A program made the position numbers and the translations under genes. This document shows, piece after piece, positions 1,115-64,000 of a stretch of DNA of 64,000 nucleotides. The stretch's first letter is position 1; the number at the start of each line of letters is the position of its first letter. The notes under the pieces are model-generated. The model was not told where the DNA came from, did no database searches, and saw only the letters and a list, made by a program, of their open reading frames with translations. The stretch spans positions 2,528-66,527 of the IMG/VR virus record IMGVR_UViG_3300010429_000218; one strand, written 5' to 3'. Origin of the DNA: a virus.

Positions 1115-1229
1115 GCCAACTAAGAAATATTTTCTTTAGTATGCTCAACATGACGGTTTTTGGCATAGTCGCAAATTATTTTCTTAGAGAACTAAAAATA
1201 GATTGACGCACAGTCCTTAGTTGGCTAAG
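1088..1229. promoter_or_regulatory. Operator array, consensus CTTAG-N4-CTAAG
   Basis: Perfect sites 1088-1101 and 1216-1229; degenerate sites 1111-1124, 1135-1148, 1183-1196; overlap PR and PL. Confidence 0.8.
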
Positions 1230-1662: not shown

Positions 1663-1926
1663 ATGTCTCGTCCCGTAATCATCTGCACCGAACACCGTGG
1701 CGTTTTCTTCGGCTATGCCGACGACACCAACGGAAACACTATCCATCTCAAAAATGCCCGAATGGCAATCACTTTCGGCACCACGAAAGGCATCATGGAA
1801 CTTGCAGAAACCGGCCCAACTTCGCGCTCCAAGATCAGCGCAAAAGCAGACATTGAGGTTCGCAAGGTTACGGCTGTCTTTGAAGTATCAGGAGAGGCAA
1901 AAGCCAAATGGGACGCGATCAAGTGA
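1663..1926 (+). CDS. DUF6948-like phage protein
   Basis: VIICTEHRGVFFG...LKNARM...GIMELAETGP pattern; AAGGAG RBS. Confidence 0.75.
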   Translation: MSRPVIICTEHRGVFFGYADDTNGNTIHLKNARMAITFGTTKGIMELAETGPTSRSKISAKADIEVRKVTAVFEVSGEAKAKWDAIK

Positions 1927-2210
1927 CCTGGTTTGACTTCCTTGAACGCATTACAGCCGTCGATTTGCTTGATGCAGGCGCGTGCGTTGATGGTGTCAAA
2001 GAATCCGTCGAAAAAAATTCTGCGCTTGCAATGAACACCTCCGACGCTGTTCAGATTTCTGAATGGGCTTCGAAAGCAGCACATGCAGACGGCTACGGCT
2101 ACGGCTACGGCCACGGCTATGGCAACGGCTACGGCTACGGCTACGGCTACGGCGACGGCCACGGCCACGGCGACGGCGACGGCTACGGCCACGGCTACGG
2201 CGACGAATAG
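1923..2210 (+). CDS. Gly-Tyr/Gly-Asp repeat protein
   Basis: GTGA overlap with upstream gene; GAC.DGV motif then GYGYGYGHGYGNG...; 6-nt NACGGC repeats 2088-2201. Confidence 0.75.
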   Translation: MTWFDFLERITAVDLLDAGACVDGVKESVEKNSALAMNTSDAVQISEWASKAAHADGYGYGYGHGYGNGYGYGYGYGDGHGHGDGDGYGHGYGDE

Positions 2211-2251
2211 CAAAACCAGCACGAATTAGTAGCAACAAAACGGAGGTCGAC

Positions 2252-10281: not shown

Positions 10282-10437
10282 ATGGAAATCCTCTTCATCC
10301 TGTGGCTTGCCTACATGGCATTCATCGGCACACGTACCGCAGAGCAGCGCCAGAATCACTTGGCGCTGCTTTGGGGATCAATGGCGCTGATGCTACTTGC
10401 GTCTCTGCTGTACGTTCTAGGCCGCGTTCTTCTCTGA
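10282..10437 (+). CDS. 51-aa two-TM membrane protein with its own promoter (moron)
   Basis: MEILFILWLAYMAFIG...LALLWGSMALMLLASLLYVLGRVLL; TTGCAA-N16-TATACT at 10248-10275 just upstream. Confidence 0.65.
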   Translation: MEILFILWLAYMAFIGTRTAEQRQNHLALLWGSMALMLLASLLYVLGRVLL

Positions 10438-16400: not shown

Positions 16401-19400
16401 ACCAATATCCGTCTGGTCCTTTATCGATCTTTCTGGCGCGGGCCAGCATGGGCGAAGCATTGAGCGTTTCAACAAGCTCAGAAAACGCTTTCTCAACCTG
16501 CGGGCGAATGCCTTCAGGATGGTTCTTATCCTTCTCCCAATTATCTGTAATCCAATACTCAGAGCTAGGCGCCTGTTCATGCATCCGCTGCAAATCGGCG
16601 CGAGACATGGGCGTGCTGCGCTTGGTCTTGTGGACATACATCGCTTCCGGCTTGTAAGTCACAAAATTATCTTTGCGGTAAGCGTTTTGGTCGCCAGTGA
16701 ACTGAACCTCATTGCCGTCATTTCTCATGCGGGCAAAGTAGTTATCGAGCGCATGGAGCCATTCGTGGGCAATACTTCCTGCGCCCCTGGTCTTGGTCAG
16801 GTTGATGAATAGTTTGTCAGGCGAGAAGTGCGCCGAAGCCCATCCCTTGCCATCCAGTCCGAACCCAAGCGCCAATGTTCCATTGAGCGAAATCGCCTTT
16901 GGCGGTAGGCCGACGATCTCGGATAAATCCATGAGCGCGTCGTAGGCTTGGTTCAGCATGCCCTGGCGCTCTTTTGCGTCGTCGCCCTGTTTTACCCAAT
17001 TTCCAAAGTCGGCGGCGCGGAATCCGAACGTGTCAATGAACGTCTGCGAATCAACGTTCTTTCCTTTGCGCCAATCCTGTCCGGTGCGCGGACGATTTTC
17101 AGCGTTGCGAACATCCGTTTTCTTGACGTTATCGCTATCCTTTACAGCCTCCCACGCAGAAACAAGTTCGTCGTAGTTTTCCTTGCGGAATTTGAACGCC
17201 TCTTCTGTGCTGGTGAATGTTTTCAGTTTCCGGTATTCGCGGTCGCCTTTCTTGTTGATGAAATAGGAATTTCCTTTGCCTCGCACCTCGAATTCCATGA
17301 GCTTCGGCTTTGTCTCAACACCAAGCAGTTTGTTGATCTTGTCCAGTGCGTCATGGACGGAGCCAGCATTGTCGATCCAATGGCTCTTACCATCGATTTC
17401 AAGAGAAACCATTGGTGTATCAACTCGGTTTCCATCCTTGTATTGATAGGCATCCGGGCGCTCACGAACATATCCAATGCGCTTCCACTGGGCGCGATCA
17501 ATGGATTCAAGCAATACAACCTTTGAATAGAAGTCGTCCAGCGTCTTCCAGTTCTTCAACATCTCGCGCAGCCTGTCTCGCGTTTCGGTGCTGTTGATAA
17601 CCTTCTGAACCAATCCACGCAGCGCCTTGATCTTGTTTACCCAAGAATCAACCTTATAGACTTTACGTGGCTTTGCTGGAATTTCTGCTCTTGCCGCAGT
17701 CGATACGGCAGCAATAAACGCATCTTCTATGCTGTCAATTTCATCGGCGGGCCATATCTTTGACAGGGGCAAATTGGCTAACTCTTGGTCTGAATACTCT
17801 TTCGCCATTGAGGCAACTTTGTACTTTCGAGCAAATTCAAGCTTCTCGCCAGCGCCTTCGATTACTTCAGATTTCGCCTCTTTCTTGGCGTCGACCGCAG
17901 CAGGCTCAACGGCTTTGGCTTCTGTGGTTGCTTTGACGGGTTGCGCGGGTTCCTGTGCTGGTTGCTCTCTGCTTGAGAGAGTAGCCATTAGCTTCTCTGC
18001 CTCTACCTTAATTTCAAGTGGGGTAGTCGGCTTCCACATTTTTCCAAGGGATTTGCTTTTCCACTGCGAGAGAATTTCTTTGTAACGAAGCTCTGCGGAT
18101 TCTCTCTCGCTTTTTTCTGGTGCTTTCTGTCCCTGTGCGGGTTGCGCAAACACATCCTGTTGCCCGCGAGCATCCTCAGTCGTTACCTTGCGCTCTACGG
18201 GTGCGGGGGCTTCCTGTCCTAGCGCGAAGTCTTCAGCGGCTTTATCGACTTCGGCTTTCTTGGCGGCTTCGCGTTCGGCCAATACCTGCGCAGCACGGCG
18301 GGCCTTCTCTTTGGCGTTTGACTCGCGCTTGGCCTTGGCGATCAGTTCTTCATGCTGGCGCTTCTCTTCGGCAATGTCGGCTTTGCGCTTGGCGAGTTCG
18401 GCAGCGGCTTGTTCGTTGGTCTGACCAGTCAGCCAGTCGGGTTCTGCGCTTTCCTGAATTTCTCCATCTTGGCTGCCATTCCAAGCCCCTTGCGCATCCC
18501 GAGTTTCGCCAGTTCCTTGCGACGTTCCACCGGAATCATTATTTCCAGTCTCTTGCGCTCCGAAAGTTTGCTTGATTGCTTCATTGATTTCGTCCTCGGT
18601 TGCACCATCGCGCTTCATGCCGCGCTTGAATGCTTCAATCGGGTCATCATTATCATAGACCGTTTCGGCATGGAAATCGACCAGCGCCTTTTCGCGGTCG
18701 CTCAGGTCATCGTAGCCAATGGCGTCGTTCTCTTCCTGTTCAGCCTGCATTTCTGCTTGTTGCATTGCAGCATCAGGCGTCATTACAGCATCGCCGCCTA
18801 GTTCTCGGCGGAATGCTTCGATGGCATCGTTCTTGGTTGCGTCCTCAGGGAAATATCCGTGCTGCTTCAGTTCTTCCAAGACGCCATCGAACGACATGCC
18901 GCCTTTCTTGTGCAGCGGCATGTTGAAGCCAAGCGATAGCGATTTAAACGATGGCTTTGTAAGCTGACCTTTGTTTTTGCCGCTTTGAATGACTCTTCCA
19001 TTGTGACGAACACTAATGTCTTTTTGGTCGAATCCGTTGCTTGTCAGTTCTTGCGTATCCATGCCGCCAAGTTTGGCGATGGCCTGGAACAAAGTGTCTT
19101 TGGTTGAGTCGATTTCGCGACGGTTCGGCTTTGCCTTTGGCTTTGGTTGAGCCTCATTGTTTGCAGCGCGGCGCATTACTTCGCCATCCCACAAGCGGCC
19201 ATCGGTCAAAGAGTATTGCCCGCCAACGGCATCAATCTTTACCAGCTTGTTTTGGACGAAGTGATCCCATGCTTTACCGGCGTCTTCTTTGCTCAGTCCG
19301 AACTGCTCTTGAACGCTGTCAATGAAGTTGTTTGCTGCATTCGCTTGGCGTTGAGCTATGCCAGATGCGCCTTTGGCGATACCAGATTTTCCGCCTACGC

Positions 19401-21870
19401 CGATACCAGCATCAGCATTTGTAACAGGCGCGGCGTTTGGTGCCGACTGTACATCAAGACTCCCAAGATACTCTTGAATCGGAACCGCCTCATACTTGGA
19501 CGTGTTCAGCGCATCAACCTTTTTCCGGTCGAATGTCTCCATGACCACTTCGCCGGTTTCCTTGTTGCGGATAACCCAACTTGAATCACGGTTAAGGCTA
19601 GAGTCAGATTTTACTTTTGCTCTTTGAGGTGCGGCGTTCTTGCGCTGCTGATATTCGGCCTCGGCTTGAATCGACTTCTCAATGACTGCTACGGCATCAT
19701 TGGAATCCATGCGCTCCTTAATCCAAAGCGTGTTATCTCGAACAGCCTCTTCAATGCTCTTGTATTGCGAGTCTCCAAACACGCCATTGTCGGTATATCT
19801 GGTTACTTGAATCATTCCTTCTTTCTGTGCAGAAGGATGGATAACAACAAAATTCCCGTTACCTGTTGAATAAGTTGGCGGCACGCCAGATGCAATAGCT
19901 TGTTCGGCATCTTTTGTGACAAGGCTAATCAATTGCCCGTTCAGGTCCGATTCGATACGCTCAAACGGTTTTGCGGTTTTCAGTTGCGCCTGAAGCTGCT
20001 TGATTCGTGCTTGAGGTGCGGCGCCTTGTTCAATCCCATCTTGCGGAGCATTCGTTTCTTGCGGCGCTTGAGCCATTTTGACAGGTTGGGCAGCACGACT
20101 ATTCTCCGGTAGATTGAACTGCGTAGCGGTCTGCGGTAGCGGTCTGGTCGTCGTCGGCTGCGCTTTGGTTGCCATGCGGCGCTGCAAATCCGCAATGGCA
20201 ACTTGGCGCATCTTCGGATTGGCGTTCTCGTTCTCGGCAATGCGTTGAACCTGTTCGTCAGAGCGCGTGCGCATCAGGCGCTCAATGGGCGCAAGTTCTG
20301 CCTGTGCGGCTTCATCGGCAAGCATCTGCTGCTCGATAGCGGCGCGCTCCGGATGCACCGGCATCTGCGTTGCGCCGGTCTGGATGCCGGTCAGTGCAGC
20401 CTTGGAAAGTGCGCCACCTTGGGCAGCGGAACGTACTAGGTCTTGCGTGATAGCAGCGTGTTGCTGCGCTTCTTCTTCGGCTAGTTGGTCTAGGCGTGTC
20501 GTAGCCTGTTGGTTTGCACTGGAACGCATAGGCTTGGCGCGTTCGTTGTCAGCAATCTTAATCTGAGAATCAAGATACTCGCCCATCGTGTAAGGCACTT
20601 CGTTTTGATTTGCATCAAGACGGATACCAATAGGTTCATTGAATGCTGCGACAAGATCAGCCTCATATTGTTTGCGGCCCTTGTCATCCATGCGGGTAGC
20701 GTCGAGGCCAAGCATGGTATCAATGCGTTGCTGTACGGGAACAGGGTCAGAAGTGAGTGATACATCGGGCGGGATAGTCGGAGCGTCTTGTGGTGCAGTC
20801 TGGTCTGCCTTGACGCCACGTAGCGGGCTTGTGGCGGCTTGATAAATCTTCTGGCCGGCATAGGTAATGCCGCTTTGTCCAAGCGACGACAGGGCTTCAA
20901 GCATGGCGCCCTTGGTATCCCAATCGCCGGTTGCAGCGCCTTGTCCAAGATATTCACCAGCGAATTCCCCAACAGGCTCCAGCGCACCTACGGTTGCATT
21001 ACGGGCGAGTGCTTGAACGCCTTTCTGCGATGCTTGATAAATCGGGTCAGCAAGCACCCTTGCGCCAATCTGTTCGCGTGCAGCAGATACAGCAGCCTTG
21101 TCTGCCGCGTTGATACCCAAAGAAGCAATAGCTCTATCCGTAGCGGCATTGACCGGAGCGCGCAGCATCTTCCCGCCAATACCCATCGTTGCGGTATCGA
21201 CCGCGCCAATGATGCCGCCTTTGATGGCTGATTTTCCGAGAACGCCGCCCGCGTCTTGCTCAAGGAATGAACGAACAGCATTGGTATCCTGCGGATTGAT
21301 GCCTGCGCCACGGATAGCCCGATCAACTTGCTCGGCAGATTCAGCAGCCGTATTTCCTGTTGCCGCGCCAGCAAAGGCACCGCCAACCGTACCAACTGGT
21401 CCAGCAAGCGAACCGGCGGCACCACCAGCCAACATTCCCGCCATCGGCATGACCATGTTCGGGATTTGCTCGACAATTCCACCGCCCATTGCTGACAGGT
21501 TTTTTCCGGTCGCCTGCAAGGCGGCAATACCAGTTGGAGCCTCGCGCCAATCTTTTGCAAACTCTCCTGCTACGCCTTTGATACCACCAATGACGCCATC
21601 GCCTTTTTCCCATGCAGCCATCAACTCATTGCCTTCCGGCGTTCCGGGATTGGCGCGTTGATAAGCATCGCGCTCGGCAGCGAGTTTTGCGGCGCTCTCA
21701 TAGTCGCCGGTAGTCAATGCGCCAAATGTCTTGCGGGCGCTATTGGCTTGTGTCAGGCCACGGACTAAGGCGTTATCTTGTTTCTTTGGCTTCTGGTTAG
21801 TAGAAAAATCAGCCCACGGTCCTGATTCTGTTTCACTGTTTTGTGCGAACTCTTCCCACGGTCCAGCCAT
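10417..21870 (-). CDS. Giant polyvalent/ejection protein (LPD1-like, RadC/MPN, zincin, ADP-ribosyltransferase-like, LPD38-like)
   Basis: ~3817 aa; FGFRAADFGNWV..HEWLH, SHNHPSG..SEAD, HEGFH..EEIAAY, VVYHGT..IYLTDN motifs. Confidence 0.88.
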   Translation of the reverse strand: MAGPWEEFAQNSETESGPWADFSTNQKPKKQDNALVRGLTQANSARKTFGALTTGDYESAAKLAAERDAYQRANPGTPEGNELMAAWEKGDGVIGGIKGVAGEFAKDWREAPTGIAALQATGKNLSAMGGGIVEQIPNMVMPMAGMLAGGAAGSLAGPVGTVGGAFAGAATGNTAAESAEQVDRAIRGAGINPQDTNAVRSFLEQDAGGVLGKSAIKGGIIGAVDTATMGIGGKMLRAPVNAATDRAIASLGINAADKAAVSAAREQIGARVLADPIYQASQKGVQALARNATVGALEPVGEFAGEYLGQGAATGDWDTKGAMLEALSSLGQSGITYAGQKIYQAATSPLRGVKADQTAPQDAPTIPPDVSLTSDPVPVQQRIDTMLGLDATRMDDKGRKQYEADLVAAFNEPIGIRLDANQNEVPYTMGEYLDSQIKIADNERAKPMRSSANQQATTRLDQLAEEEAQQHAAITQDLVRSAAQGGALSKAALTGIQTGATQMPVHPERAAIEQQMLADEAAQAELAPIERLMRTRSDEQVQRIAENENANPKMRQVAIADLQRRMATKAQPTTTRPLPQTATQFNLPENSRAAQPVKMAQAPQETNAPQDGIEQGAAPQARIKQLQAQLKTAKPFERIESDLNGQLISLVTKDAEQAIASGVPPTYSTGNGNFVVIHPSAQKEGMIQVTRYTDNGVFGDSQYKSIEEAVRDNTLWIKERMDSNDAVAVIEKSIQAEAEYQQRKNAAPQRAKVKSDSSLNRDSSWVIRNKETGEVVMETFDRKKVDALNTSKYEAVPIQEYLGSLDVQSAPNAAPVTNADAGIGVGGKSGIAKGASGIAQRQANAANNFIDSVQEQFGLSKEDAGKAWDHFVQNKLVKIDAVGGQYSLTDGRLWDGEVMRRAANNEAQPKPKAKPNRREIDSTKDTLFQAIAKLGGMDTQELTSNGFDQKDISVRHNGRVIQSGKNKGQLTKPSFKSLSLGFNMPLHKKGGMSFDGVLEELKQHGYFPEDATKNDAIEAFRRELGGDAVMTPDAAMQQAEMQAEQEENDAIGYDDLSDREKALVDFHAETVYDNDDPIEAFKRGMKRDGATEDEINEAIKQTFGAQETGNNDSGGTSQGTGETRDAQGAWNGSQDGEIQESAEPDWLTGQTNEQAAAELAKRKADIAEEKRQHEELIAKAKRESNAKEKARRAAQVLAEREAAKKAEVDKAAEDFALGQEAPAPVERKVTTEDARGQQDVFAQPAQGQKAPEKSERESAELRYKEILSQWKSKSLGKMWKPTTPLEIKVEAEKLMATLSSREQPAQEPAQPVKATTEAKAVEPAAVDAKKEAKSEVIEGAGEKLEFARKYKVASMAKEYSDQELANLPLSKIWPADEIDSIEDAFIAAVSTAARAEIPAKPRKVYKVDSWVNKIKALRGLVQKVINSTETRDRLREMLKNWKTLDDFYSKVVLLESIDRAQWKRIGYVRERPDAYQYKDGNRVDTPMVSLEIDGKSHWIDNAGSVHDALDKINKLLGVETKPKLMEFEVRGKGNSYFINKKGDREYRKLKTFTSTEEAFKFRKENYDELVSAWEAVKDSDNVKKTDVRNAENRPRTGQDWRKGKNVDSQTFIDTFGFRAADFGNWVKQGDDAKERQGMLNQAYDALMDLSEIVGLPPKAISLNGTLALGFGLDGKGWASAHFSPDKLFINLTKTRGAGSIAHEWLHALDNYFARMRNDGNEVQFTGDQNAYRKDNFVTYKPEAMYVHKTKRSTPMSRADLQRMHEQAPSSEYWITDNWEKDKNHPEGIRPQVEKAFSELVETLNASPMLARARKIDKGPDGYWSRIIERGARSFENYVIHKMMEGGYQNDYLANVKSAEDFSRDKGRYPYLLPEEVAPVAEAFDNLFNTLETKETDKGIALMEESAVYNVNEPDAFTGDIFQGTEHALPETKRRAIPAGRQSRARADDGQGASRVLAVREAADTPGVYHVSAQLVTVGERQLPVATVKTSEDAARAFAHLSRFAVEHMDGLVTDKDGKPLAIIGAFKGAPTQASVYSSTLMMELARIDGAANLWLSHNHPSGMPNLSEADRTLSRNFRKILRDTSVTYQGLSAMARRGDTIRWEDDDYNSGEVSANEPTPHRVPIVERELVNSNPVSKVGGPQDAKRLVPDLAKDSPGVVFLTAQNEIASFVPFSPEEMGELRSGSRLMKLFNAAAKSGATGALVAMPDGKVTTAQFGNLKGALGTIDVGVFDGIRYDSAATDGGKSVAESGEYVDSVGANFFSRGNGATQGQSFPRAQAESRIKSILGDKLGKVLIDSGIVSFTNKGNEYQGATYKDGSISLNLDALNADNFAGVLQHEGFHSTIRDLVGEQTYTQMMKRLDTMLAMGKGAQWVKDAEAAIPSDTKAEHRTEEIAAYSIEQYVNGAKQPNIIKRWVESLLSALRTAIIQRMPNGKLKLWAIGNIKPQDLANLAIAGLKAKAGKVAATSYTSAGYADARMSKTQERTVRAVNPGSSEPVQYVGEAGGKVSIKEFNAFVNRFKGEQPIDNYGYKQKIADLVEEIESDWSKGSSDDYSNIFGPDKIYVDLHKENNMEYFDGDGDLTDSGSSRYNELERELSTKIAKDEIGEPERQSVSLNKAGDMAKIVHAYLEKLGIEPSAISGSGKSDSKYFSVEINGEQKTVRVSDHQIPVEYQDRNGAADYEIALYDVGDDVRSDGRITSNGITEEEASRRAVEVINSILQAQGREAMAYSKINQTDTPEFKKWFGNSKVVDADGKPLVVYHGTNADFSVFKTTRSGEFGPAIYLTDNPREAGEYGEAVKGISFAPPSANIMPVYARIENPYTKGVDAFWKEFGRSDSDAAGVERAKAAGYDGIIAKRADRYYDNVAHEFVDLGNTLTHYIAFSNTQVKSAIGNNGDFGTNPDIRYSRAKIIGDSGRQSAFDIPESSKMDDVIYAMQDKQVDLRRVVQSIKKAGGNLTDSNNAYLQEELFHGRASKGVHDFLNNELRPLVAQMRSLNVEMADFEEYLWNRHAEERNQQIAKINDQMPDGGSGIKTADARAYLKALDPAKRSAYESLAKRIGAINRSSQEILVKSGLEKQETIDAWNGAYSNYVPLHREDVDTGHVGTGKGYSIRGSASKRAVGSNKPVVDILANLAMQRERNIVRAEKNRVSNALYGLAVANPNADLWEVDKAPTERVVQNKAVYKVVDDTNGVVLDEFDRMEDAERYSLHHDNTSVEQSWADKVVTRIVPGFRQQDNVIHTRINGEDHFVIMDDKNPRSVRMAQSIKNLDMDQLGKVLSNTAKATRYMAAINTQYNPVFGVVNLTRDTQGAMLNLSTTPLAGQQKKVLKYTLSALRGIYADLRDSRNGKAPSSAWEKEFDEFQNAGGQTGFRDQYSNAQERGDAIAKELKSLDRNWLLKRGGAMFDWLSDYNESMENAVRLASFKAAKESGMSVEQAASLAKNLTVNFNRKGQVATQMGALYAFFNASVQGTARLAETMAGPMGKKILYGGLLLGSMQAMLLAASGMGDDEPPEFVRERSIIIPIGDGKYVSIPMPLGFHVIPNLSRIPTEFVMSGFKDPAKRIADIFGLFADTFNPIGNAGLSLQTIAPTVIDPLAALSENRDWTGKPIAKLDRDSLNPTPGYLRAKDTATSWSRAISYGFNLLSGGTDYKKGLFSPTPDQIDYLIGQATGGVGREVSKAEQTGMALATGEELPMHKIPLFGRFIGDTTGQSAEGGKFYASIQRINEHENEIKGLRKEGNADAIREYIKDNPEAMLVVGANHVEREIQKLKAAKREAVKADNTERVKAIESQITSRMKMFNDRVRSLSEKNAA

Positions 21871-23795
21871 TATGCTTTCTCCCAAGATGCCTTATCTGCC
21901 GGATTGCCGCCCTTGAATCGGTATCCGCCGCGAACGTCGCCAACAGACGGGGCGCCGGATTGCTGCCCATCTTCCTGAACGCGCCGGCCAGTCTGCTGAT
22001 CGAATACATAGCTCGGGCGGCGAATCTTGCTCATGCCGTCAGGCCCAATTTCTTCCCCGCCCTGCACAGTGATGTAACGGTCAGCGTTCGGATTCTTTCC
22101 GGTCAATGCCTGAAGCGAAGCCAGCGCATTCTTGTCGCCAGCGATTGCTTTTCCTTGAAGGTCAGAAATGCGTTGCGCCTGCGTCAGTGACAGTTGCTTG
22201 GTCTGGTTGTCCAGCGGATTTCCTTGCAGGCGCAGCAGTTCATTCTGCGCATTCAAATCCTGTCCGCGCATGGTTACTTGGTCACGGTTGCTTTCGCGCT
22301 GCGCAGCGACTCCGGCATTCTGGCGGGAAGTTTCGTTGTTCATTGCGGCAACGTCACGATGGCCGTCTGAATTCAGCAATGCGCCAATGGCCGCCTGGTT
22401 TCCGCGAGTGGCAAGTCTTAGCAAATCATCTTGGCGCCAACGCTGCGTTTTCTCGGCGTTCGCCGCTTCCACGCCGCCATCACCAAGAATGCCAGGAGCG
22501 TATCCGCCAGCCGGAATATCCTTGTCTCGATTGGCGATCATTTCCCCCGTAATCTTGTTCGCATTAGCGTAGCGGGAGAGTCCTTCATTCACAGAGGCCG
22601 CATCGCCGCCGATCATCTGATCTTTCAGCCCAACAACGGCTTTCTGCGGATCAATGTTGGTGTAGAGCGGTGATGTTTCGGGTGACGTGACCCGCTTAAC
22701 TCCATCTTGCGATGTCGGATTGACGGTGTAGTTTCTGCTACCTTCGGTGAATTGGTTATCAACGATGGCGCCTGGATTTTGCTTGGAGATCGGAGCAGGA
22801 ACGCTACGGCCCTCATTTCCGTAGTTTAACAACACGCCAGCAGACAAAGGGTTGCTTGCGTGCGAAGGAACTTGGGCCGGCGCTTGTGCTGTGCCGTTTT
22901 GTCCGACAACGCCATATTGCAGGGCAGACTTTACTGGATCATTCATCACGCCAGCAGAGGTCGCTTCGGCGCGCCGGCCACGCTCCATTTCAAGCCCGGT
23001 GCGATTGTCGGCGGACGAAGCGCCGGCATACCAAGGGCGAGGACCGTCATTCGACGGGCTTACAGAATTCTGTGCAGTTGCCACCGGAAGCGAACCAGAC
23101 ACCCGGTCAGTTTTTGTCGGCAGGCCTCCGTTGTCGTAAATAGTCGGCGCCTGTCCTGCGCCCATGCTGATTGCAGGAAGACCAACATCCTTGTAGATTC
23201 CACCCTGCGCTGCCGAGTTGTTGGTGCTGAGTGACGGGATGGAAAGAGTGTTTCGCGTGGCCTGCATTGCTTTGGCGTATTCATCTGGATTGTTGTCTAG
23301 CGACCATCCGCCCGCTGCTGCCTTCTTGCCACCCTTGATCGTCGGGCCAACCGGCTTGCCGGTGCCCGCCTCGAAAAACGCATCGACCGACTCAAAGCCC
23401 ATTGCCTTCGCCAGTCGTTGCAGCAACTTGTCCTGCTCGTGGGAAACAATGCGCTCCTTGGTCGATACCTTGATCGGCTCGCCAGTATCTTCTACCTGTG
23501 CGTCGATGCTGTCCGAGGTCGGCGTGCCGATACCTTTGATAAGACCGCCATTGGCGTAACCAGACGCCTTGTCGATCTGTTTCTGGCGATTGCCAAACAA
23601 ATTCAGCGCATCGCCAATCAGTCCCTTGGAATTCTGTTTCTGTTCCGGCTGCGGTTGTGGTGCCGGTTGGGCGACGGGCGGCGGTGCCGGTTGAGAGTTT
23701 CCGCTGACGCCATACTTGGCATTCATTTCTGCAATCAGTTGATCAGCCTTGCTGATCTGACCACCATCGGCGAAACAGGCTCTTGCTTTCTTCAT
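21870..23795 (-). CDS. Internal virion/DNA-ejection protein
   Basis: FADGG/YANGG motifs, GIGTPTSDSI, C-terminal YRFKGGNPADKASW; upstream of the giant gene. Confidence 0.65.
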   Translation of the reverse strand: MKKARACFADGGQISKADQLIAEMNAKYGVSGNSQPAPPPVAQPAPQPQPEQKQNSKGLIGDALNLFGNRQKQIDKASGYANGGLIKGIGTPTSDSIDAQVEDTGEPIKVSTKERIVSHEQDKLLQRLAKAMGFESVDAFFEAGTGKPVGPTIKGGKKAAAGGWSLDNNPDEYAKAMQATRNTLSIPSLSTNNSAAQGGIYKDVGLPAISMGAGQAPTIYDNGGLPTKTDRVSGSLPVATAQNSVSPSNDGPRPWYAGASSADNRTGLEMERGRRAEATSAGVMNDPVKSALQYGVVGQNGTAQAPAQVPSHASNPLSAGVLLNYGNEGRSVPAPISKQNPGAIVDNQFTEGSRNYTVNPTSQDGVKRVTSPETSPLYTNIDPQKAVVGLKDQMIGGDAASVNEGLSRYANANKITGEMIANRDKDIPAGGYAPGILGDGGVEAANAEKTQRWRQDDLLRLATRGNQAAIGALLNSDGHRDVAAMNNETSRQNAGVAAQRESNRDQVTMRGQDLNAQNELLRLQGNPLDNQTKQLSLTQAQRISDLQGKAIAGDKNALASLQALTGKNPNADRYITVQGGEEIGPDGMSKIRRPSYVFDQQTGRRVQEDGQQSGAPSVGDVRGGYRFKGGNPADKASWEKA

Positions 23796-59992: not shown

Positions 59993-60102
59993 TCTTCATC
60001 CCTCGGCACATAGCGGAACAGGCGCGGGCAGAACCAAATGCAGAATCCATAGCTGATGCCAAGCCAGATCAGCGCGGCGATAATCAGGGTTAGCAAGTTC
60101 AT
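59989..60102 (-). CDS. Small membrane protein (homolog of 474-587)
   Basis: MNLLTLIIAALIWLGISYGFCIWFCPR. Confidence 0.65.
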   Translation of the reverse strand: MNLLTLIIAALIWLGISYGFCIWFCPRLFRYVPRDEE

Positions 60103-60296
60103 TTCCGGCCCCCTTCCGATGTGGTCGGATTGATACCGGCAACCCGACAAACGATAGTGGCCTCATAGAGCTTCGCCTTAGCCCAGTTCTCTAGGAGGTC
60201 ATTGATGAAAGCTGTCCGACACTTGCCAGTTGCAGAGCAATACCCGTCGAGAACGTCGATGGTTTCCTTCTTTGCCTCAAAGCGGATTTCTGGCAT
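60099..60296 (-). CDS. RHH-like regulator in CII position (different allele from left copy)
   Basis: EIRFEAKKETIDVLD....GKCRTAFINDLL..WA. Confidence 0.6.
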   Translation of the reverse strand: MPEIRFEAKKETIDVLDGYCSATGKCRTAFINDLLENWAKAKLYEATIVCRVAGINPTTSEGGRK

Positions 60297-60297
60297 G

Positions 60298-60810
60298 TCA
60301 CGCCACCCGCTGAATAGGATTGAATTTATGAACAATCGCTTTAATTCTTATTCTTGTGGCAATAGCTTCATCTTTGGTGCAACACCTAATCCTTGTGTAA
60401 ATGCCATTCTTTTTTACAGAGGCAACCCACTTTTTCTGACTCTTGTCGAAATGCACGCCAATAAAACCGGATGTGTTTTTTTTGCTTATCCCAATGTTTT
60501 CCATGTTTTGAGACGGATTGCACTCTCTAAGATTGGCGATACGGTTATCCGTGCCGATGCCGTTTATATGGTCTATCTGTTCGTCAGGGAACTTTCCATA
60601 TACATAGAGCCACGCAAGCTGATGTGCCACATAGCACCGTCCGTTTATTGTTATGTGCGCATACTCAACACCAGCTTGGTTTTTTCTACGGTGTCCGCTC
60701 AATTCTCCAGCCCTTGCCTTTTTCCCTCTGTTCACGCGATTAATGAACAATCCTGTCATTGGGTCGTAAGACACGAGTTCAATAAGAGACTCATAAGAAA
60801 TACGTTCCAT
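60298..60810 (-). CDS. HNH homing endonuclease (HNH_3 + AP2-like)
   Basis: YDPMTG.F..AHQLAW.Y..G.FP...IDHING...DNRIANLRE..N..NTSGFIGV. Confidence 0.9.
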   Translation of the reverse strand: MERISYESLIELVSYDPMTGLFINRVNRGKKARAGELSGHRRKNQAGVEYAHITINGRCYVAHQLAWLYVYGKFPDEQIDHINGIGTDNRIANLRECNPSQNMENIGISKKNTSGFIGVHFDKSQKKWVASVKKNGIYTRIRCCTKDEAIATRIRIKAIVHKFNPIQRVA

Positions 60811-60899
60811 CAATTCACCGAAAAAAGAAGCCCCGGATGCCGAAGCATCTACGTGGCGAAACCCGGCATTTAGTCCGGGGGAGGGAGACACGGTTAGCA

Positions 60900-61094
60900 T
60901 CAGGCCGATTCCTTGGTCTTGACCGACTCTGGATCAACCACGTCGGGCCTGATTTGCGCGAAGAACTTCAGCCAGTGCCACGGAACACCGTTTTCAGAGG
61001 TGCGCCATTGCGACACTGCGCCGGTTGTGACTCCGGTCATCTCGGCAACAGCAGAGGTGCCACCAAGCGAGTCGATAATTTTGTTTGCATCCAT
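60900..61094 (-). CDS. cro: Cro-like HTH repressor (right allele)
   Basis: 62/64 aa identical to 885-1079. Confidence 0.85.
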   Translation of the reverse strand: MDANKIIDSLGGTSAVAEMTGVTTGAVSQWRTSENGVPWHWLKFFAQIRPDVVDPESVKTKESA

Positions 61095-61164
61095 GTCGTT
61101 ATCTTAGCGAACTAAGACCATGTGCGCAAGCCAACTAAGAAACTTTTTCTTTAGTATGCTCAAT

Positions 61165-61623
61165 ATGAGCACGCTTCAGGAACGGATCACTCTCGCCTAT
61201 AAGAACGAGAACGAGCGCAGGCTGAATAAAGGAGAGAGGAAGCTAACGAAAACAGCTTTGTGGAAAGCTGCCGGACTGTCTTCGTCTTCGGCATCGCATT
61301 GGTTTTCAGGAACTAACGGCATGGACTTTGATGTTGCCGTCAAGATTGCGCCGCTGCTGAACGTCAATCCTTATTGGCTGTTTGACGAATCTCAGCCAAT
61401 GACGAAGCGCGGCCCTGATTTGGCGCCTGTAAAGATATTCCCAACTCATCTCAGCGATGTTTCGCTAAGAGTCGCCGAGCTGGTTAATAAGATGCCAGCA
61501 GAAGATCAGGAAAAGTTCGAGTTTTACCTGACGGTAGAAAAGCACCGCCGTGAAATCAGTGCAACGCCGAACGATCCAATCGGTTCTCCACCTGGTTCGA
61601 TGCCGGATCACGACGCCCCTTAA
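61165..61623 (+). CDS. cI: CI-like XRE repressor without S24 autoprotease domain
   Basis: LTKTALWKAAGLSSSSASHWFSG..KIAPLLNVNPYWL; divergent from cro; TATGCT -10 four nt before ATG. Confidence 0.82.
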   Translation: MSTLQERITLAYKNENERRLNKGERKLTKTALWKAAGLSSSSASHWFSGTNGMDFDVAVKIAPLLNVNPYWLFDESQPMTKRGPDLAPVKIFPTHLSDVSLRVAELVNKMPAEDQEKFEFYLTVEKHRREISATPNDPIGSPPGSMPDHDAP

Positions 61624-61826
61624 TTTCGATAGGCGCGCCGCCTGGGTTGCTAATGATGGCAGTACATGGGCGCCCGTGAAGCAATGCAAGGCGATCCAGC
61701 TTTCCCTGAATCGAGTCGATGAGTTCTTCTATGCTGTTCATGATTGTTTTAAACGCTGTTTGATGCCCATTGTGCGCCTGACAACAGGCTGACGCAACAC
61801 TGACTTACGTCATAGGAGATTGCGCT

Positions 61827-62411
61827 TCACCGCCAGTCCGTATCGTCTTTGTTGCTCTTCCCTAGATTGCAATCCTCGCAAAGAACCTGAAGATTGTTTA
61901 TGTCTAGTTGCAACCAAGGGAATTTTGAGCGCGGCTTGATGTGATCGACGTGGAGACGGACGCCATCTGTTCTTGTGGCACCGCAGCACTGGCAAGCCGC
62001 GCCATGCTTTACTAGGGCTTTATAGCGTACTTCTCGCCATTCTCTAGAAAGATAGAAGGAGTCATTTGAAACACGCGTTTTCGGCTTTTTGTCGATAACA
62101 ACGGGCGACTTCTGAGCGAAGATTTTTATTTCTGAATCGGCGTCGGCCCTAGTGATTGCGCCAGCCTTGACGAGCTTGTTAAGCCGGTTGCGTTCCTTGC
62201 GCTCAAGTCTATCTTGGATGTTCTGCGAATTTCTGCTGTCTGCAATCGCCATTAGTTGCTGCAACTTTTGCTCGGTGATTTTTACGTCCGCGAATTTTTC
62301 GACCCATCCTTTTTTCAATGGCCACTTAAGCCCAATCAGATCGGATTCGCGCCTTGTAAGAGCATTTGACTTAGAGAATCTGCTTACAAGATACTCTCTT
62401 ACAGTAATCAT
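61827..62411 (-). CDS. HNH endonuclease with N-terminal extension
   Basis: FYLSREWREVR..CQCCG..LHVDHIKPRS...NLQVLCEDCNLGK. Confidence 0.9.
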   Translation of the reverse strand: MITVREYLVSRFSKSNALTRRESDLIGLKWPLKKGWVEKFADVKITEQKLQQLMAIADSRNSQNIQDRLERKERNRLNKLVKAGAITRADADSEIKIFAQKSPVVIDKKPKTRVSNDSFYLSREWREVRYKALVKHGAACQCCGATRTDGVRLHVDHIKPRSKFPWLQLDINNLQVLCEDCNLGKSNKDDTDWR

Positions 62412-62880
62412 CTAGCAACCCCTTAAGCATATACCCGGATCGGTTCGCAAGACTCCAGCTTTTGTACTAGAGCCTTCACATCACACCCGTCTCGGACATG
62501 CAATGACCCGTCAGCCTTTCGGGTGATCGTGCTAACTTCGCTGCGATCTGCTCTAGTGCGACCCTTGTACCCTGGTAGAGCATTCCGATATTGCCGCCAG
62601 TGTTCGTATCCCCCAGCAATACCGCACTACTCGTCATTGCCGCAACGAACTTGCCCGCCGTTGCTTTGCTTGCTCCGGTTTAGCAGGAGTCCAAGCAATG
62701 ACTACCGGCTAACCGCCAAATAAAAAGCCCTGATCGGCTTGTGACCGTCAGGGCTTTAGCATTTTTGCTTGGAGTCATTCGGTCAGCTTGGCGGCTATTC
62801 AGCTATCTAGGAAACTGAACGCCGATAGGGCGCAACCCTATCTCTGACCTAGATAACTCCATCGGGTGCCATCCCGACTT
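62412..62880 (-). ncRNA. Long structured non-coding leader of the HNH gene
   Basis: No credible ORF; many hairpins; internal terminator 62721-62757; promoter TTGAGT-N17-TATACT at 62887-62915 (-). Confidence 0.6.
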
Positions 62881-62901
62881 GACGCAAGTATAAATTATTT
62901 T

Positions 62902-62950
62902 CTTAGACAACTCAAAATGTATTGACGCATTGTGCTTAGTTAGCTAAGAT
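62902..62950 (+). promoter_or_regulatory. PL promoter and OL operators (right copy)
   Basis: TTGACG-N17-TAAGAT; CTTAGTTAGCTAAG 62935-62948; CTTAGACAACTCAA 62902-62915. Confidence 0.8.
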
Positions 62951-62986
62951 TCAGTCATCGGAACACAACAACGAGCGGAGAACGAG

Positions 62987-63205
62987 ATGACCGACAAGAA
63001 GACAGTAACGATTGATCTGAACGAGTTGCAAAAAGCCAAGGATCTAATCGATCTTGCAAACAGCGTACCGCTTGAAAACGTGGTGTGGCAGCGGGATGGA
63101 GTAACGGTTAATCCGCCGAAGGTTGAATTTGATGCGTGGAAGTACATCGGATTGAGCAACGTGCATTTTGCATACGACCATATGCTTACTAAGAGCCAAA
63201 AATGA
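62987..63205 (+). CDS. Hypothetical protein, right copy only
   Basis: GGAG RBS; first gene after PL. Confidence 0.65.
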   Translation: MTDKKTVTIDLNELQKAKDLIDLANSVPLENVVWQRDGVTVNPPKVEFDAWKYIGLSNVHFAYDHMLTKSQK

Positions 63206-63354
63206 CCGACAAGCAACTAGCCGAACTGGAAGCCAATGAACTGGCAGAGCAGCGCGACGAGCAAGCCAAGCGCATGGAACAGGCAATGCTGGCGGTCAAT
63301 GAAGTCTCGCAGCAGCACAACCGCACAGGAACCACCTACGGAGTAAGCAAGTAA
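63202..63354 (+). CDS. Hypothetical protein (C-terminal half homologous to 1372-1548)
   Basis: MTDKQLAELE...RMEQAMLAVNEVSQQHNRT. Confidence 0.65.
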   Translation: MTDKQLAELEANELAEQRDEQAKRMEQAMLAVNEVSQQHNRTGTTYGVSK

Positions 63355-63564
63355 ATCAAGTCCCAAAGGCATCTGGCCGGAGTCAATGCAGCCCTGCAAC
63401 GATGGGTAGGCAACTCAACACAGAGGGACTTGATGTATTTGCAACAAACCACCAGCCGCAGCCGGTAATGCCGGGCAGAGACTCTAGCAACACAAGTTCG
63501 ACGCAGCCGCAGTGGAGTACTAAAAGTTCAAGCGATTAGTAGCAATTAACAACTGGAGGCCGAC

Positions 63565-63762
63565 ATGACCAAGCAACAAGTAGCAAAGGCAACGCCAGCT
63601 TTCTTTGGTGCTGGACATGAATATGTTTTCCAGGTTGGAGATAAGCAGGAAGTCGTTGTAGCAGGAAACCAGACCGATGCCACCGCTGCGCTGTACGCCT
63701 ATCTCAAGGCACACGGCAATGACAGTAAGGTTGAGTTCGTCGAAGAACACAACGCCGAATAA
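63565..63762 (+). CDS. Hypothetical protein (copy of 2252-2449)
   Basis: Identical protein. Confidence 0.85.
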   Translation: MTKQQVAKATPAFFGAGHEYVFQVGDKQEVVVAGNQTDATAALYAYLKAHGNDSKVEFVEEHNAE

Positions 63763-63775
63763 CGAGGGAATGACC

Positions 63776-63970
63776 ATGAACAACGAGCCGAAATTTGGCG
63801 CAGCAATCCCGCAAGACCAGTGGATTCAGCGCACCGCAACAACCGATCCGAATCCGCGCATGCCGTTCTCTGGCATCTATTACCAGGATGAAATCAAGAT
63901 GCCGTTCTTTGAGCACTTGATTGCTGGAACGGTGTTTGGATTTGCCATCGGCGCGATTCTTTTTTCTTAA
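63776..63970 (+). CDS. Hypothetical TM protein (copy of 2463-2657)
   Basis: Near-identical protein. Confidence 0.8.
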   Translation: MNNEPKFGAAIPQDQWIQRTATTDPNPRMPFSGIYYQDEIKMPFFEHLIAGTVFGFAIGAILFS

Positions 63971-64000
63971 CCAAAGCAGCTTCTAACGAGGCTGCACAAT

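What the first reader, a model, noticed from the sequence alone, without database searches (positions are those of the whole stretch)
61827..62915. Cassette of a ~470-nt structured RNA leader plus HNH nuclease inside the immunity region, with parallel-ordered complementary blocks around a terminator
Seen: between cI and PL of the right copy only lies a leftward promoter (TTGAGT-N17-TATACT, 62887-62915, its -35 inside an operator), ~470 nt without a credible ORF, then an HNH gene. On the transcript, blocks TAGCCGCCAA, ACCG, ATGACT, CCAAGCA (62766-62797) precede an intrinsic terminator (62721-62757). Just after it come TTGGCGGTTA, CGGT, AGTCAT, TGCTTGG (62691-62719). Each is the reverse complement of its partner (one G-U pair), but in the SAME order, so they cannot form one simple nested hairpin. 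The upstream blocks can alternatively pair with the 5' end (GGAGTTAT/ATGACTCC, GGTCAG/CTGACC). A further ~280 nt of hairpin-rich sequence follows. Knowledge: P1 c4 and P4 CI RNAs use short split complementary boxes to control termination of a toxic or antirepressor gene. Inference: an RNA-gated, repressor-coupled nuclease module (abortive infection or anti-competitor), or an RNA-associated HNH system distinct from IscB/HEARO (no RuvC or PLMP motif seen).
Basis: partly seen in the sequence, partly recalled or inferred. Interest (0 to 1): 0.8.

Follow-up and report, generated by a model that had tools for sequence, protein, structure and literature searches.

The report
Knotted phage RNA leading HNH gene
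The gene-free stretch is a long form of a widespread but still unexplained phage RNA, preceded by a switchable stop signal and followed by a DNA-cutting enzyme gene that often sits behind this RNA; the arrangement is real and partly new, but it is not the RNA-gated defence module first proposed.

Summary
On the minus strand lie a promoter-like site, about 470 nt with no credible ORF, a terminator-like hairpin flanked by same-order complementary blocks, and an HNH gene.

The "hairpin-rich 280 nt" is a known Rfam family: RF02932, Betaproteobacteria-1 RNA, at 62506-62623, 59.8 bits against a cut-off of 49.4. Here it is a long form with an extra 5' module and a 75-nt 3' domain.

The family is common in uncultured phages, with at least 119 pattern matches. 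It is multiply pseudoknotted with strong covariation. Most copies stand without any HNH gene, typically after helicase and primase genes or after cro.

HNH genes nevertheless recur in the variable slot just behind it: 12 of 148 loci fetched with the HNH protein carry the RNA upstream.

The upstream leader is a bistable domain. Two of its alternative helices are supported by compensatory changes, but block pairs C:C' and D:D' are not.

There is no c4, CI or HEARO match. This scan met the same RNA family before on other DNA. Its function remains unknown.

The parts
62887..62915 (-). Promoter-like site; its first hexamer overlaps the right half of an operator-like palindrome copy (62901-62916), back to back with the plus-strand promoter-like site at 62922-62950
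   Evidence: 9 of 12; 3 sites found against 2.2 expected; palindromes read. It is the only minus-strand promoter-like site between 63300 and 62412. Not shown to be active.
62771..62878 (-). Bistable 5' leader domain. It holds a small 5' hairpin (62878-62861). An early hairpin H1 (62858-62848 with 62811-62801) is replaced by a three-way junction closed by 62860-62853 with 62778-62771 and 62849-62844 with 62786-62781.
   Evidence: Folds of growing transcripts; MFE with z -7.5; the same architecture in L189. Compensatory changes in H1 in three lineages (window, L189, an RNA-run contig) and in the closing helix (one G-C to A-U change and one co-deleted pair).
62766..62797 (-).
   Evidence: shuffle test. 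B and C form the 3' strand of the junction's closing helix. Part of A lies in a junction hairpin.
62718..62757 (-). Terminator-like hairpin T (10-bp stem, 14-nt loop) with a run of T
   Evidence: The hairpin is kept in L189 with one added base pair, but the T-run is interrupted there and the scan does not call it. One RNA-library contig bridges it (weak, since DNA can be present in such libraries).
62691..62719 (-).
   Evidence: A:A' is kept in L189 (8 contiguous pairs, one G-U becoming G-C). C' covaries with 62643-62636 instead of with C. D' can form a local hairpin with 62669-62663.
62631..62706 (-). Module 2: two hairpins joined by a purine-rich linker, closed by 62705-62698 with 62643-62636. 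Counterparts exist in the L078/L080-type long forms.
   Evidence: One compensatory change against L189. The likeness to other loci was judged by eye only.
62506..62623 (-). Core of the RF02932 (Betaproteobacteria-1) RNA; my own model R1 matches 62500-62630
   Evidence: Rfam 59.8 bits against a cut-off of 49.4; R1 65.6 bits. Covariation of five helices, three of them crossing the others. Compensatory changes against L189 in four helices.
62429..62505 (-). 3' domain. It consists of a short hairpin whose loop carries repeat R1 (62495-62481), a GAAGGC linker, a second hairpin, then repeat R2 (62443-62429).
   Evidence: The same layout is visible by eye in nearly all of 64 distinct loci. R1 and R2 are direct repeats that change together: 78% identity within a locus against 41% between loci, in 51 loci.
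61827..62411 (-). HNH endonuclease gene (194 aa). It has a conserved roughly 45-residue N-terminal domain, a long helical linker and a C-terminal HNH domain.
   Evidence: Pfam PF01844; PHROGs HNH families; 1406 relatives; alignment A3; model pLDDT 89.3, with only the HNH part matching solved structures.

Best explanation
The 470-nt 'leader' is one non-coding early transcript built from two separable modules, and the HNH gene is a passenger behind it.

Module 1 (about 62880-62718) is a promoter-proximal bistable RNA domain followed by a hairpin with a T-run. A first hairpin (H1) forms as the RNA emerges. It is replaced by a three-way junction once blocks B and C are made. The hairpin T then stops part of the polymerases. 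In this reading, how compact the structure just upstream of T is sets how leaky the stop is (inferred).

Module 2 (about 62706-62429) is a long form of the known phage RNA family RF02932. It is a multiply pseudoknotted RNA of about 200-280 nt. Many phages carry it in their early operons whatever gene follows, so it works as an autonomous RNA, and its molecular job is not known.

Polymerases that pass T transcribe this RNA, then the HNH gene from its own ribosome-binding site. In this phage no further terminator-like site is called before cro, so they would run on antisense through the repressor gene into cro (inferred).

The HNH gene belongs to nuclease genes that repeatedly occupy the variable slot right behind this conserved RNA gene. 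Most likely it is a free-standing homing-type (selfish) endonuclease. It would use the conserved RNA gene as its landing or cutting site and the RNA's transcription for its own expression, rather than being an enzyme gated or guided by the RNA.

Shown: the identity and structure of the RNA, the alternative leader helices, and the recurrent RNA-HNH neighbourhood.
Inferred: termination and read-through, the homing role, and antisense transcription of the repressor gene.
For: RNA identity:
- RF02932 is matched above its gathering score. It is also matched in L083, L233, L109, L097, L080 and L189.
- Model R1 finds exactly one copy in each of 70 of 70 sources.

Structure:
- On 70 sequences, 94.7% of cells are paired and 17 of 19 pairs show changes on both sides.
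- The covariation score is 0.511 against 0.153 in shuffles (0 of 500 reach it) and at most 0.114 when partners are slid.

Autonomy of the RNA:
- At least 119 viral contigs match the pattern, giving 67 distinct cores among 81 segments.
- 33 loci have the RNA right after a Toprim_3 gene, preceded by a helicase gene in 27. Nine loci, the window included, have a Cro/YdaS-like gene nearby on the RNA's strand, mostly a few hundred nt upstream of the RNA (downstream of it in the window). Genes downstream are heterogeneous, for example NinB.
- The cultured Acidovorax phage AP1 holds it (R1 89.1 bits) in an unannotated gap after its helicase and primase genes.

HNH as an occupant of a variable slot:
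- HNH ORFs start +77 to +94 after the core in the window, L075, L078 and L080.
- L078 and L107 are alike from -1320 to +60. Then the HNH ORF of L078 stands where L107 has an unrelated 53-aa ORF, and likeness resumes after it.
- L093 has an identical core but no HNH gene.
- HNH genes with differing N-terminal parts sit behind the RNA (window/L189/L003 type against L258, L075 and L078).
- A second HNH ORF (HNH_3 + AP2, 60298-60900) is an indel against the left copy.

From the protein side: 12 of 148 loci fetched with the HNH protein have an R1 match (E below 0.01) upstream on the same strand. These represent 7 lineages, down to 36% protein identity.

Leader:
- The cassette L189-191 is about 80% identical over the leader and keeps the architecture.
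- Compensatory changes support H1 and the junction's closing helix.

Read-through:
- No other minus-strand promoter-like site lies between T and the HNH gene, and no terminator-like site between the HNH gene and 60846.
- One 361-nt contig from an RNA library spans 62505-62850.
- In L191 the same cassette runs straight into a Cro-like gene with no repressor gene between.
Against: - No transcription start, end or termination has been measured. The contigs from RNA libraries are shallow (depth 2-6) and may include DNA.
- The promoter-like match is no better than chance gives in this region.
- In L189 the scan calls neither a promoter nor a terminator at the homologous places, and the T-run is interrupted there. 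T may therefore be a structural hairpin rather than a stop signal.
- Homing is not shown. No cleavage site is known, and I found no clear resistance-type differences between alleles with and without the HNH gene (by eye).
- The RNA-HNH neighbourhood persists down to 36% protein identity, and the N-terminal domain is conserved. Both also fit a functional RNA-protein tie.
- Four of 9 lineages with the N-terminal domain and enough upstream DNA gave no R1 match (L006, L020/21, L023, L206).
- The 1.67-kb stretch shared by L189-191 holds the whole early control region. It is mosaicism, not evidence for HNH mobility.
- The helices scored were picked from the same alignment.
Confidence: 0.55

Rival explanations
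1. RNA-gated nuclease module. The complementary blocks around the terminator act like the split boxes of P1 c4 or P4 CI RNA. They control read-through into a toxic or anti-competitor HNH nuclease that is coupled to the repressor.
For: - The blocks are real and unusual: 12 of 5000 shuffles reach the chain length.
- The leader has two alternative folds with covariation.
- A:A' is kept in L189.
- The promoter-like site overlaps an operator-like palindrome.
- The RNA-HNH neighbourhood is conserved in 7 lineages.
Against: - No match to C4, c4-a1b1, IsrK or sRNA-Xcc1 at E up to 10.
- C:C' loses two pairs in L189, while C' covaries with 62643-62636. D has three uncompensated changes.
- A' to D' are made after the T-run, so they cannot act on that terminator.
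- The leader type seen in the window was found only in L189-191 (searches found nothing else).
- Other phages put the same RNA before unrelated genes.
Confidence: 0.13
2. Processive antitermination. The RF02932 long form acts in cis on the polymerase that makes it, as HK022 put RNA does. Only transcripts that start at the upstream promoter and pass T would then read through the terminator-like site behind cro (60846-60830) and on into the replication and late genes.
For: - The RNA always lies in early operons, co-oriented with long downstream operons, whatever gene follows.
- In the window and in L191 it lies upstream of cro and of the hairpin with a T-run behind cro. That hairpin region is 92% conserved between the two.
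- No terminator-like feature was seen by eye straight after the RNA in the 64 loci listed.
- The first ORFs of the plus-strand early operon match no Pfam family (62987-63205) and no PHROG above a weak hit of unknown function (both ORFs), so no known antiterminator protein was recognised there.
- put RNA sets the precedent (passages of PMC9378689).
Against: - put RNAs are about 70 nt, form two stem-loops, and come as one copy in each early operon. Here there is a single, roughly 200-nt knotted RNA with no likeness to put.
- Earlier notes of this scan report relatives of the family as stand-alone genes with their own promoter and terminator in T4-like phages (not checked by me). That fits a free RNA better.
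- I did not survey terminators downstream in the other loci.
Confidence: 0.15
3. RNA-protein nuclease. The HNH protein binds the RNA through its N-terminal domain (for example at the paired repeats R1 and R2) and works as a ribonucleoprotein. This would be analogous to, but unrelated to, IscB/IshB with omega RNA.
For: - The RNA lies directly 5' of the ORF, as omega RNA does (recalled).
- The neighbourhood is kept from 64% down to 36% protein identity, and RNA and protein have diverged together.
- The N-terminal domain is conserved, has no known fold match, and its role is unexplained.
- R1 and R2 change together as direct repeats, as two sites for one specific binder would.
Against: - The RNA, with R1 and R2, is present in most loci without any HNH gene nearby.
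- HNH genes lacking this N-terminal domain also sit behind the RNA.
- Pfam finds only HNH, with no RuvC or RRXRR-type domain, and there is no HEARO match.
- No guide-like variable 5' or 3' segment with a target was found. R1 and R2 have no antisense match in the window.
Confidence: 0.07

Closest known systems
Rfam RF02932, Betaproteobacteria-1 RNA motif (listed as a candidate sRNA. Its source survey is recalled to be Weinberg et al. 2017, PMC5737381. The main text does not mention it and the supplements were closed).
   Same: The core at 62506-62623 matches the whole 120-position model above the gathering score. The cultured host of one carrier (Acidovorax phage AP1, on Paracidovorax oryzae) is, from my own knowledge, a betaproteobacterium.
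   Different: The Rfam structure line shows three plain hairpins. The alignments here add three crossing helices, a 75-nt 3' domain present in nearly all loci and, in promoter-proximal copies, extra 5' modules. Phage early-operon contexts and the HNH neighbourhood are not part of the Rfam record as seen.
Free-standing HNH homing endonuclease genes of phages (T4 mob-type genes; recalled, no call)
   Same: A small HNH ORF sits in an intergenic, variable slot next to a highly conserved gene. Presence or absence differs between near-identical backgrounds. A second HNH ORF lies nearby as an indel.
   Different: No cleavage or homing data exist. The neighbour is an RNA gene. The protein carries a conserved N-terminal domain of unknown fold and its HNH domain is C-terminal.
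P1/P7 c4 RNA and P4 CI RNA immunity systems
   Same: A structured, promoter-proximal leader with a stop signal and short complementary boxes stands ahead of a gene in the immunity region.
   Different: No Rfam match to C4 or c4-a1b1. Two of the three meaningful box pairs fail the comparison with L189. The boxes downstream of the stop cannot act on it.
HK022 put RNA (PMC9378689, passages read)
   Same: An RNA element encoded in the early operon of a lambdoid-type phage, upstream of terminators, in a phage where no antiterminator protein was recognised in the ORFs scanned.
   Different: put is about 70 nt, forms two stem-loops, and has one copy in each early operon. Here there is one copy of a roughly 200-nt knotted RNA. 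No activity has been tested.
IscB/IshB with omega (HEARO) RNA (recalled)
   Same: A structured, pseudoknotted RNA lies immediately 5' of a small HNH ORF.
   Different: No HEARO match and only an HNH domain in Pfam. No IS200/605-type context was noticed, but I did not search for transposon ends or TnpA. The RNA mostly occurs without any HNH gene.

Membership tests
Rfam RF02932 Betaproteobacteria-1 RNA | Covariance-model score at or above the curated gathering score (49.4 bits) over the full model | tested here: met
   59.8 bits, model positions 1-120 of 120, minus strand, E 4.1e-10
Rfam RF02932 Betaproteobacteria-1 RNA | Conserved helices kept by compensatory changes | tested here: met
   on 70 sequences; window against L189 in four helices
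Intrinsic (factor-independent) terminator | G+C-rich hairpin directly followed by a run of U | tested here: met
   Window: 10-bp stem followed by a T-rich tail. In the homologue L189 the T-run is interrupted and the site is not called.
Intrinsic (factor-independent) terminator | RNA 3' ends at the U-run | not testable with these tools
   Only contigs of RNA libraries were on hand, and they cannot show ends
P1 c4 / P4 CI-type antisense-box control | Match to the C4 or c4-a1b1 RNA families | tested here: not met
   Only RF02932 and a chance-level asX2 match at E up to 10
P1 c4 / P4 CI-type antisense-box control | Complementary boxes kept by covariation | tested here: not met
   C:C' is broken in L189, and C' covaries with another partner. 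D has three uncompensated changes. Only A:A' is kept.
IscB/IshB-omega RNA (HEARO) | HEARO RNA match, and an N-terminal PLMP/RRXRR-type domain or a RuvC domain | tested here: not met
   No HEARO match; Pfam gives only HNH and HNH_5
Free-standing HNH homing endonuclease | HNH catalytic motif | tested here: met
   PF01844 at residues 140-188; invariant D156, H157, N173 and N182 and four Cys in 48 relatives
Free-standing HNH homing endonuclease | Presence or absence of the gene between otherwise alike genomes, next to a conserved target gene | tested here: inconclusive
   L078 against L107 and L093 shows this for a shorter HNH relative. No HNH-less relative of the window's own cassette was found.
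Free-standing HNH homing endonuclease | Cleavage of the HNH-less allele and gene conversion | not testable with these tools
   Needs enzyme assays and phage crosses
HK022 put-type antiterminator RNA | About 70 nt, two stem-loops, one copy downstream of each early promoter | tested here: not met
   One copy per record, and a knotted fold of about 200 nt. put features are taken.

The most novel reading that the evidence does not exclude
The HNH subfamily with the conserved N-terminal domain is an RNA-bound nuclease. It docks on the paired, co-varying repeats R1 and R2 in the 3' domain of the knotted RNA made just before it, giving a new kind of RNA-associated HNH system in phages, unrelated to IscB. 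The knotted RNA would be a general phage platform that different partners read through R1 and R2.
Probability: 0.08. Interest if true: 0.85.

Novelty: new variant of a known kind. Interest (0 to 1): 0.45.

Why it matters
RF02932 turns out to be one of the commoner structured RNAs of uncultured temperate-type phages, yet nothing is known about what it does.

This window adds four things.
- The true RNA is much longer and more knotted than the catalogued 120 nt.
- Promoter-proximal copies are preceded by switchable stop-signal leaders.
- Its 3' domain carries two direct repeats that change together, a pattern ordinary base pairing does not explain.
- A subfamily of HNH nuclease genes has lived right behind it for a long evolutionary time.

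Either answer about the HNH gene is useful. If it is a homing nuclease aimed at an RNA gene, it is a clean natural example. If it is an RNA-bound nuclease, it is a new system.

A cultured carrier, Acidovorax phage AP1, makes the RNA testable at the bench.

Tried and rejected
- Closest HNH relatives. The RNA-HNH link therefore rests on loci from the search for related loci and the DNA search only.
- Bacterial genomes. A sample of 151 genomes of one class, plus two single genomes, gave 0 RF02932 matches. The tool itself warns that this does not show absence.
- Rfam at the gathering threshold on 20 viral HNH loci found nothing. My own model later found sub-threshold relatives in three of them, L007, L015 and L016.
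- Closer relatives of the window's RNA or leader. Two pattern scans of viral contigs found none. blastn of 60800-63300 against cultured phages found none.
- Full-length HNH relatives in cultured phages: 0 of 12 records cover 80% of the protein.
- N-terminal domain of the HNH protein. It has no Pfam or PHROG family, no solved-structure match (best row 5h0m, HNH part only, E 4.1e-3) and no Atlas lead.
- A partner for repeats R1 and R2: no antisense match in the window with up to 3 mismatches in 15.
- RNA libraries. Parts of the stretch without cover in the four runs say nothing. The apparent stop of one contig at 62505 and the depth differences are not evidence.
- Replication-primer idea. The RNA often follows primase genes, but in the window and in L191 it lies upstream of cro, far from the replication genes. 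I dropped the idea as unsupported.
- Shared cassette. The 1.67-kb stretch shared by L189-191 is not evidence for HNH mobility.
- Papers. 'Betaproteobacteria-1' appears in 3 papers of the library, none about this RNA (listing only). The main text of PMC5737381 has no mention and its supplements were closed, so they may describe the motif and its contexts. PMC10690425 and the preprint 10.64898/2026.09.22.753630 do not mention HNH or the motif (term look-ups only). The 'tug-of-war' preprint 10.64898/2026.06.17.733018 was read as abstract and outline only. I used it only as a precedent that structures just upstream of terminators can suppress termination. I found no paper on an RF02932-HNH link, but my searches were few.
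Full report
WHAT IS THERE

The window is bases 2528-66527 of a 66.5-kb IMG/VR virus record. Its two ends hold diverged copies of a lambdoid-type early region.

In the right copy the genes run as follows:
- a Cro-like gene, 60900-61094 minus;
- a repressor-like helix-turn-helix gene, 61120-61623 plus;
- an HNH gene, 61827-62411 minus;
- a plus-strand early operon starting behind a promoter-like site at 62922-62950.

The left copy joins 1153 to 1173. It therefore lacks the repressor gene, the HNH gene and the whole leader.

In a dinucleotide-shuffle test, 12 of 5000 shuffles reach the same-order block chain and 51 of 5000 reach the longest block.

THE 'HAIRPIN-RICH 280 NT' IS A KNOWN RNA FAMILY IN A LONGER FORM

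Rfam finds one family in the window: RF02932, Betaproteobacteria-1 RNA, at 62506-62623 minus, 59.8 bits against a cut-off of 49.4. Nothing else appears at E up to 10 except a chance-level terminator look-alike.

The 80 loci fetched, with the window, give 67 distinct cores.

Alignment shows more than the three hairpins in the Rfam structure line. Five helices, three of them crossing the others, are 94.7% paired. Seventeen of 19 pairs change on both sides. The covariation score is 0.511, against 0.153 in shuffles (0 of 500 reach it) and at most 0.114 with slid partners. I picked these helices from the same alignment, so the figures lean in their favour.

Behind the core, nearly all of 64 distinct loci show the same 75-nt 3' domain by eye. 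It holds two 9-nt direct repeats, R1 and R2, that change together: 78% identity within a locus against 41% between loci, in 51 loci. In the window they lie at 62495-62481 and 62443-62429 and have no antisense partner. I have no explanation for this pattern.

WHERE THE RNA LIVES

In 33 loci it directly follows a Toprim_3 (primase-type) gene, preceded by a helicase gene in 27. The cultured Acidovorax phage AP1 shows exactly this: partition-related protein, helicase, primase, then a 293-nt unannotated gap with the RNA (R1 89.1 bits).

In eight other loci a Cro/YdaS-like gene lies a few hundred nt upstream on the same strand. By eye, the RNA then has its own promoter-like boxes and a leader.

Genes downstream are heterogeneous. 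Every source holds one copy. The RNA is thus an autonomous module of early operons, not the leader of one gene family.

THE LEADER IN FRONT OF IT

Promoter-proximal copies in other phages are preceded by a roughly 100-nt element. It has two long complementary pairs in the order A, B, hairpin, A', B', followed by a T-run (by eye). This is again same-order complementarity, which cannot nest. Rfam does not hold this element.

The window's leader differs in sequence. I found it only in L189-191, three metagenome contigs that share a 1.67-kb cassette at 96.6-98.5% identity and are about 80% identical to the window over the leader.

Folding growing transcripts gives this order of events:
- Hairpin H1 forms first (62858-62848 with 62811-62801).
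- Once blocks B and C are made, a three-way junction replaces it. The junction is closed by 62860-62853 with 62778-62771 and by 62849-62844 with 62786-62781.
- The final fold has z -7.5.

Both folds have comparative support:
- H1 is kept by different base pairs in the window, in L189, and in a 361-nt contig from an RNA library. In that contig, three changes on the 3' strand match its own 5' strand.
- The closing helix shows one G-C to A-U exchange and one co-deleted base pair.

For the block pairs themselves:
- A:A' is kept (8 contiguous pairs in L189, with one G-U becoming G-C).
- B is too short to judge.
- C:C' loses two pairs in L189, while the change in C' is compensated at 62643-62636.
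- D carries three uncompensated changes. D' can instead form a local hairpin.

The downstream blocks are made after the T-run, so they cannot decide termination there.

Whether the hairpin terminates at all is open. It is kept in L189, but the T-run is interrupted there and the scan calls neither a promoter nor a terminator at the homologous places.

[quoted passage not shown] A switch between H1 and the junction, which ends 13 nt before the hairpin, could meter read-through in that way. This is inference.

THE HNH GENE

The protein has three parts: a conserved roughly 45-residue N-terminal domain, a long helical and variable linker, and a C-terminal HNH domain with an invariant catalytic motif. 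Only the HNH part matches families and solved structures. No cultured phage has a full-length relative.

From the RNA side:
- HNH ORFs start 77-94 nt behind the core in the window, L075, L078 and L080. That is 3 of the 80 loci fetched by the RNA pattern.
- Two more loci have an HNH ORF starting about 300 nt behind the core, and four at 900-1900 nt.
- L078 and L107 are alike up to +60. The HNH ORF of L078 then stands where L107 has an unrelated 53-aa ORF, and likeness resumes behind it.
- L093 has an identical core but no HNH gene.

From the protein side:
- 12 of 148 loci fetched with the HNH protein carry an R1 match (E below 0.01) upstream on the same strand. They represent 7 lineages.
- These include relatives at 36% identity whose RNAs are equally diverged.
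- Among lineages that keep the N-terminal domain and have enough upstream DNA, 5 of 9 have such a match. The four without are L006, L020/21, L023 and L206. By eye, L006 has a leader-type terminator element.
- HNH genes with other N-terminal parts also sit behind the RNA (L258, L075, L078).

A second HNH ORF (HNH_3 + AP2, 60298-60900) behind cro is an indel against the left copy.

The simplest reading is that the slot behind this very conserved RNA gene is a habitual home for selfish HNH genes. The long co-residence and the unexplained N-terminal domain leave room for a real RNA-protein tie.

TRANSCRIPTION

No other minus-strand promoter-like site lies between the hairpin and the HNH gene. No terminator-like site lies between the HNH gene and a hairpin with a T-run behind cro, at 60846-60830. 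Polymerases that pass the leader would therefore cross the repressor gene antisense and enter cro.

In L191 the same cassette runs directly into a Cro-like gene with no repressor gene between. There the RNA simply heads the early operon.

Four RNA libraries from sludge-type samples hold shallow contigs over parts of the leader, the core and the HNH gene. One contig spans 62505-62850 across the hairpin. This is weak support, because such libraries can hold DNA.

COMPARISON AND VERDICT

The core is a member of RF02932. The c4/CI, HEARO/IscB and put families each fail a defining test (see the membership table).

The RNA's function is unknown. I rate the four readings as follows:
- autonomous early RNA with a selfish HNH passenger, 0.55;
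- put-like antitermination, 0.15;
- an RNA-bound nuclease, 0.07.

This scan had already met the family at least eight times on other DNA. The new points here are the HNH neighbourhood, the bistable leader with comparative support for both folds, and the co-varying direct repeats.

Noticed in passing
window 62495-62481 and 62443-62429 (minus); same layout in L070-L149: Two 9-15-nt direct repeats (R1 in a hairpin loop, R2 in the 3' tail) in the RNA's 3' domain change together between phages. Identity is 78% within a locus against 41% between loci, in 51 loci. No antisense partner exists in the window. Ordinary base pairing does not explain this.
   Followed up: partly
window 1153-1173 against 61169-62891: The left copy of the early region lacks the repressor gene, the small ORF, the HNH gene and the whole leader. 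Only about 20 unrelated bases lie between the cro-side and PL-side operators. It could be a repressor-less deletion variant, or a second strain joined to the first during assembly.
   Followed up: partly
window 60298-60900 (minus): A second nuclease ORF (HNH_3 plus an AP2 domain) sits directly behind cro. The left copy has a different 232-nt stretch with a 66-aa ORF (592-792 minus) in place of 60088-60819. Relatives of this ORF occur in L078, L109 and L132, 1.9-2.1 kb behind the RNA.
   Followed up: partly
window 60846-60830 (minus): A terminator-like hairpin with a T-run lies just behind cro. The surrounding 78 nt are 92% identical in L191 (2604-2681). It is a candidate first stop of the early operon.
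   Followed up: no
L269 3428-3720 (Acidovorax phage AP1, OM049504.1, 11822-12114): The unannotated gap behind the primase gene of a cultured phage holds the RNA (R1 89.1 bits at 11850-11985 of the record).
   Followed up: yes
L078, L083, L097, L109, L130, L233, L006 and others, about 100-110 nt ahead of the RNA: A promoter-proximal leader of the form A, B, hairpin, A', B', T-run. The two long helices share no bases but cross, so they cannot both form as nested stems. Rfam found nothing for it in the loci I scanned (L097, L083, L233, L006 and L109 among them).
   Followed up: partly
window 10417-21885 (minus): A single 3822-aa ORF lies in the structural region.
   Followed up: no
window 1700-2230: The left copy holds about 0.5 kb of simple-repeat coding sequence (Gly/Tyr/His and Ala/Val repeat ORFs on both strands) ahead of the stretch shared with 63535-63998. 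I did not see it in the right copy.
   Followed up: no
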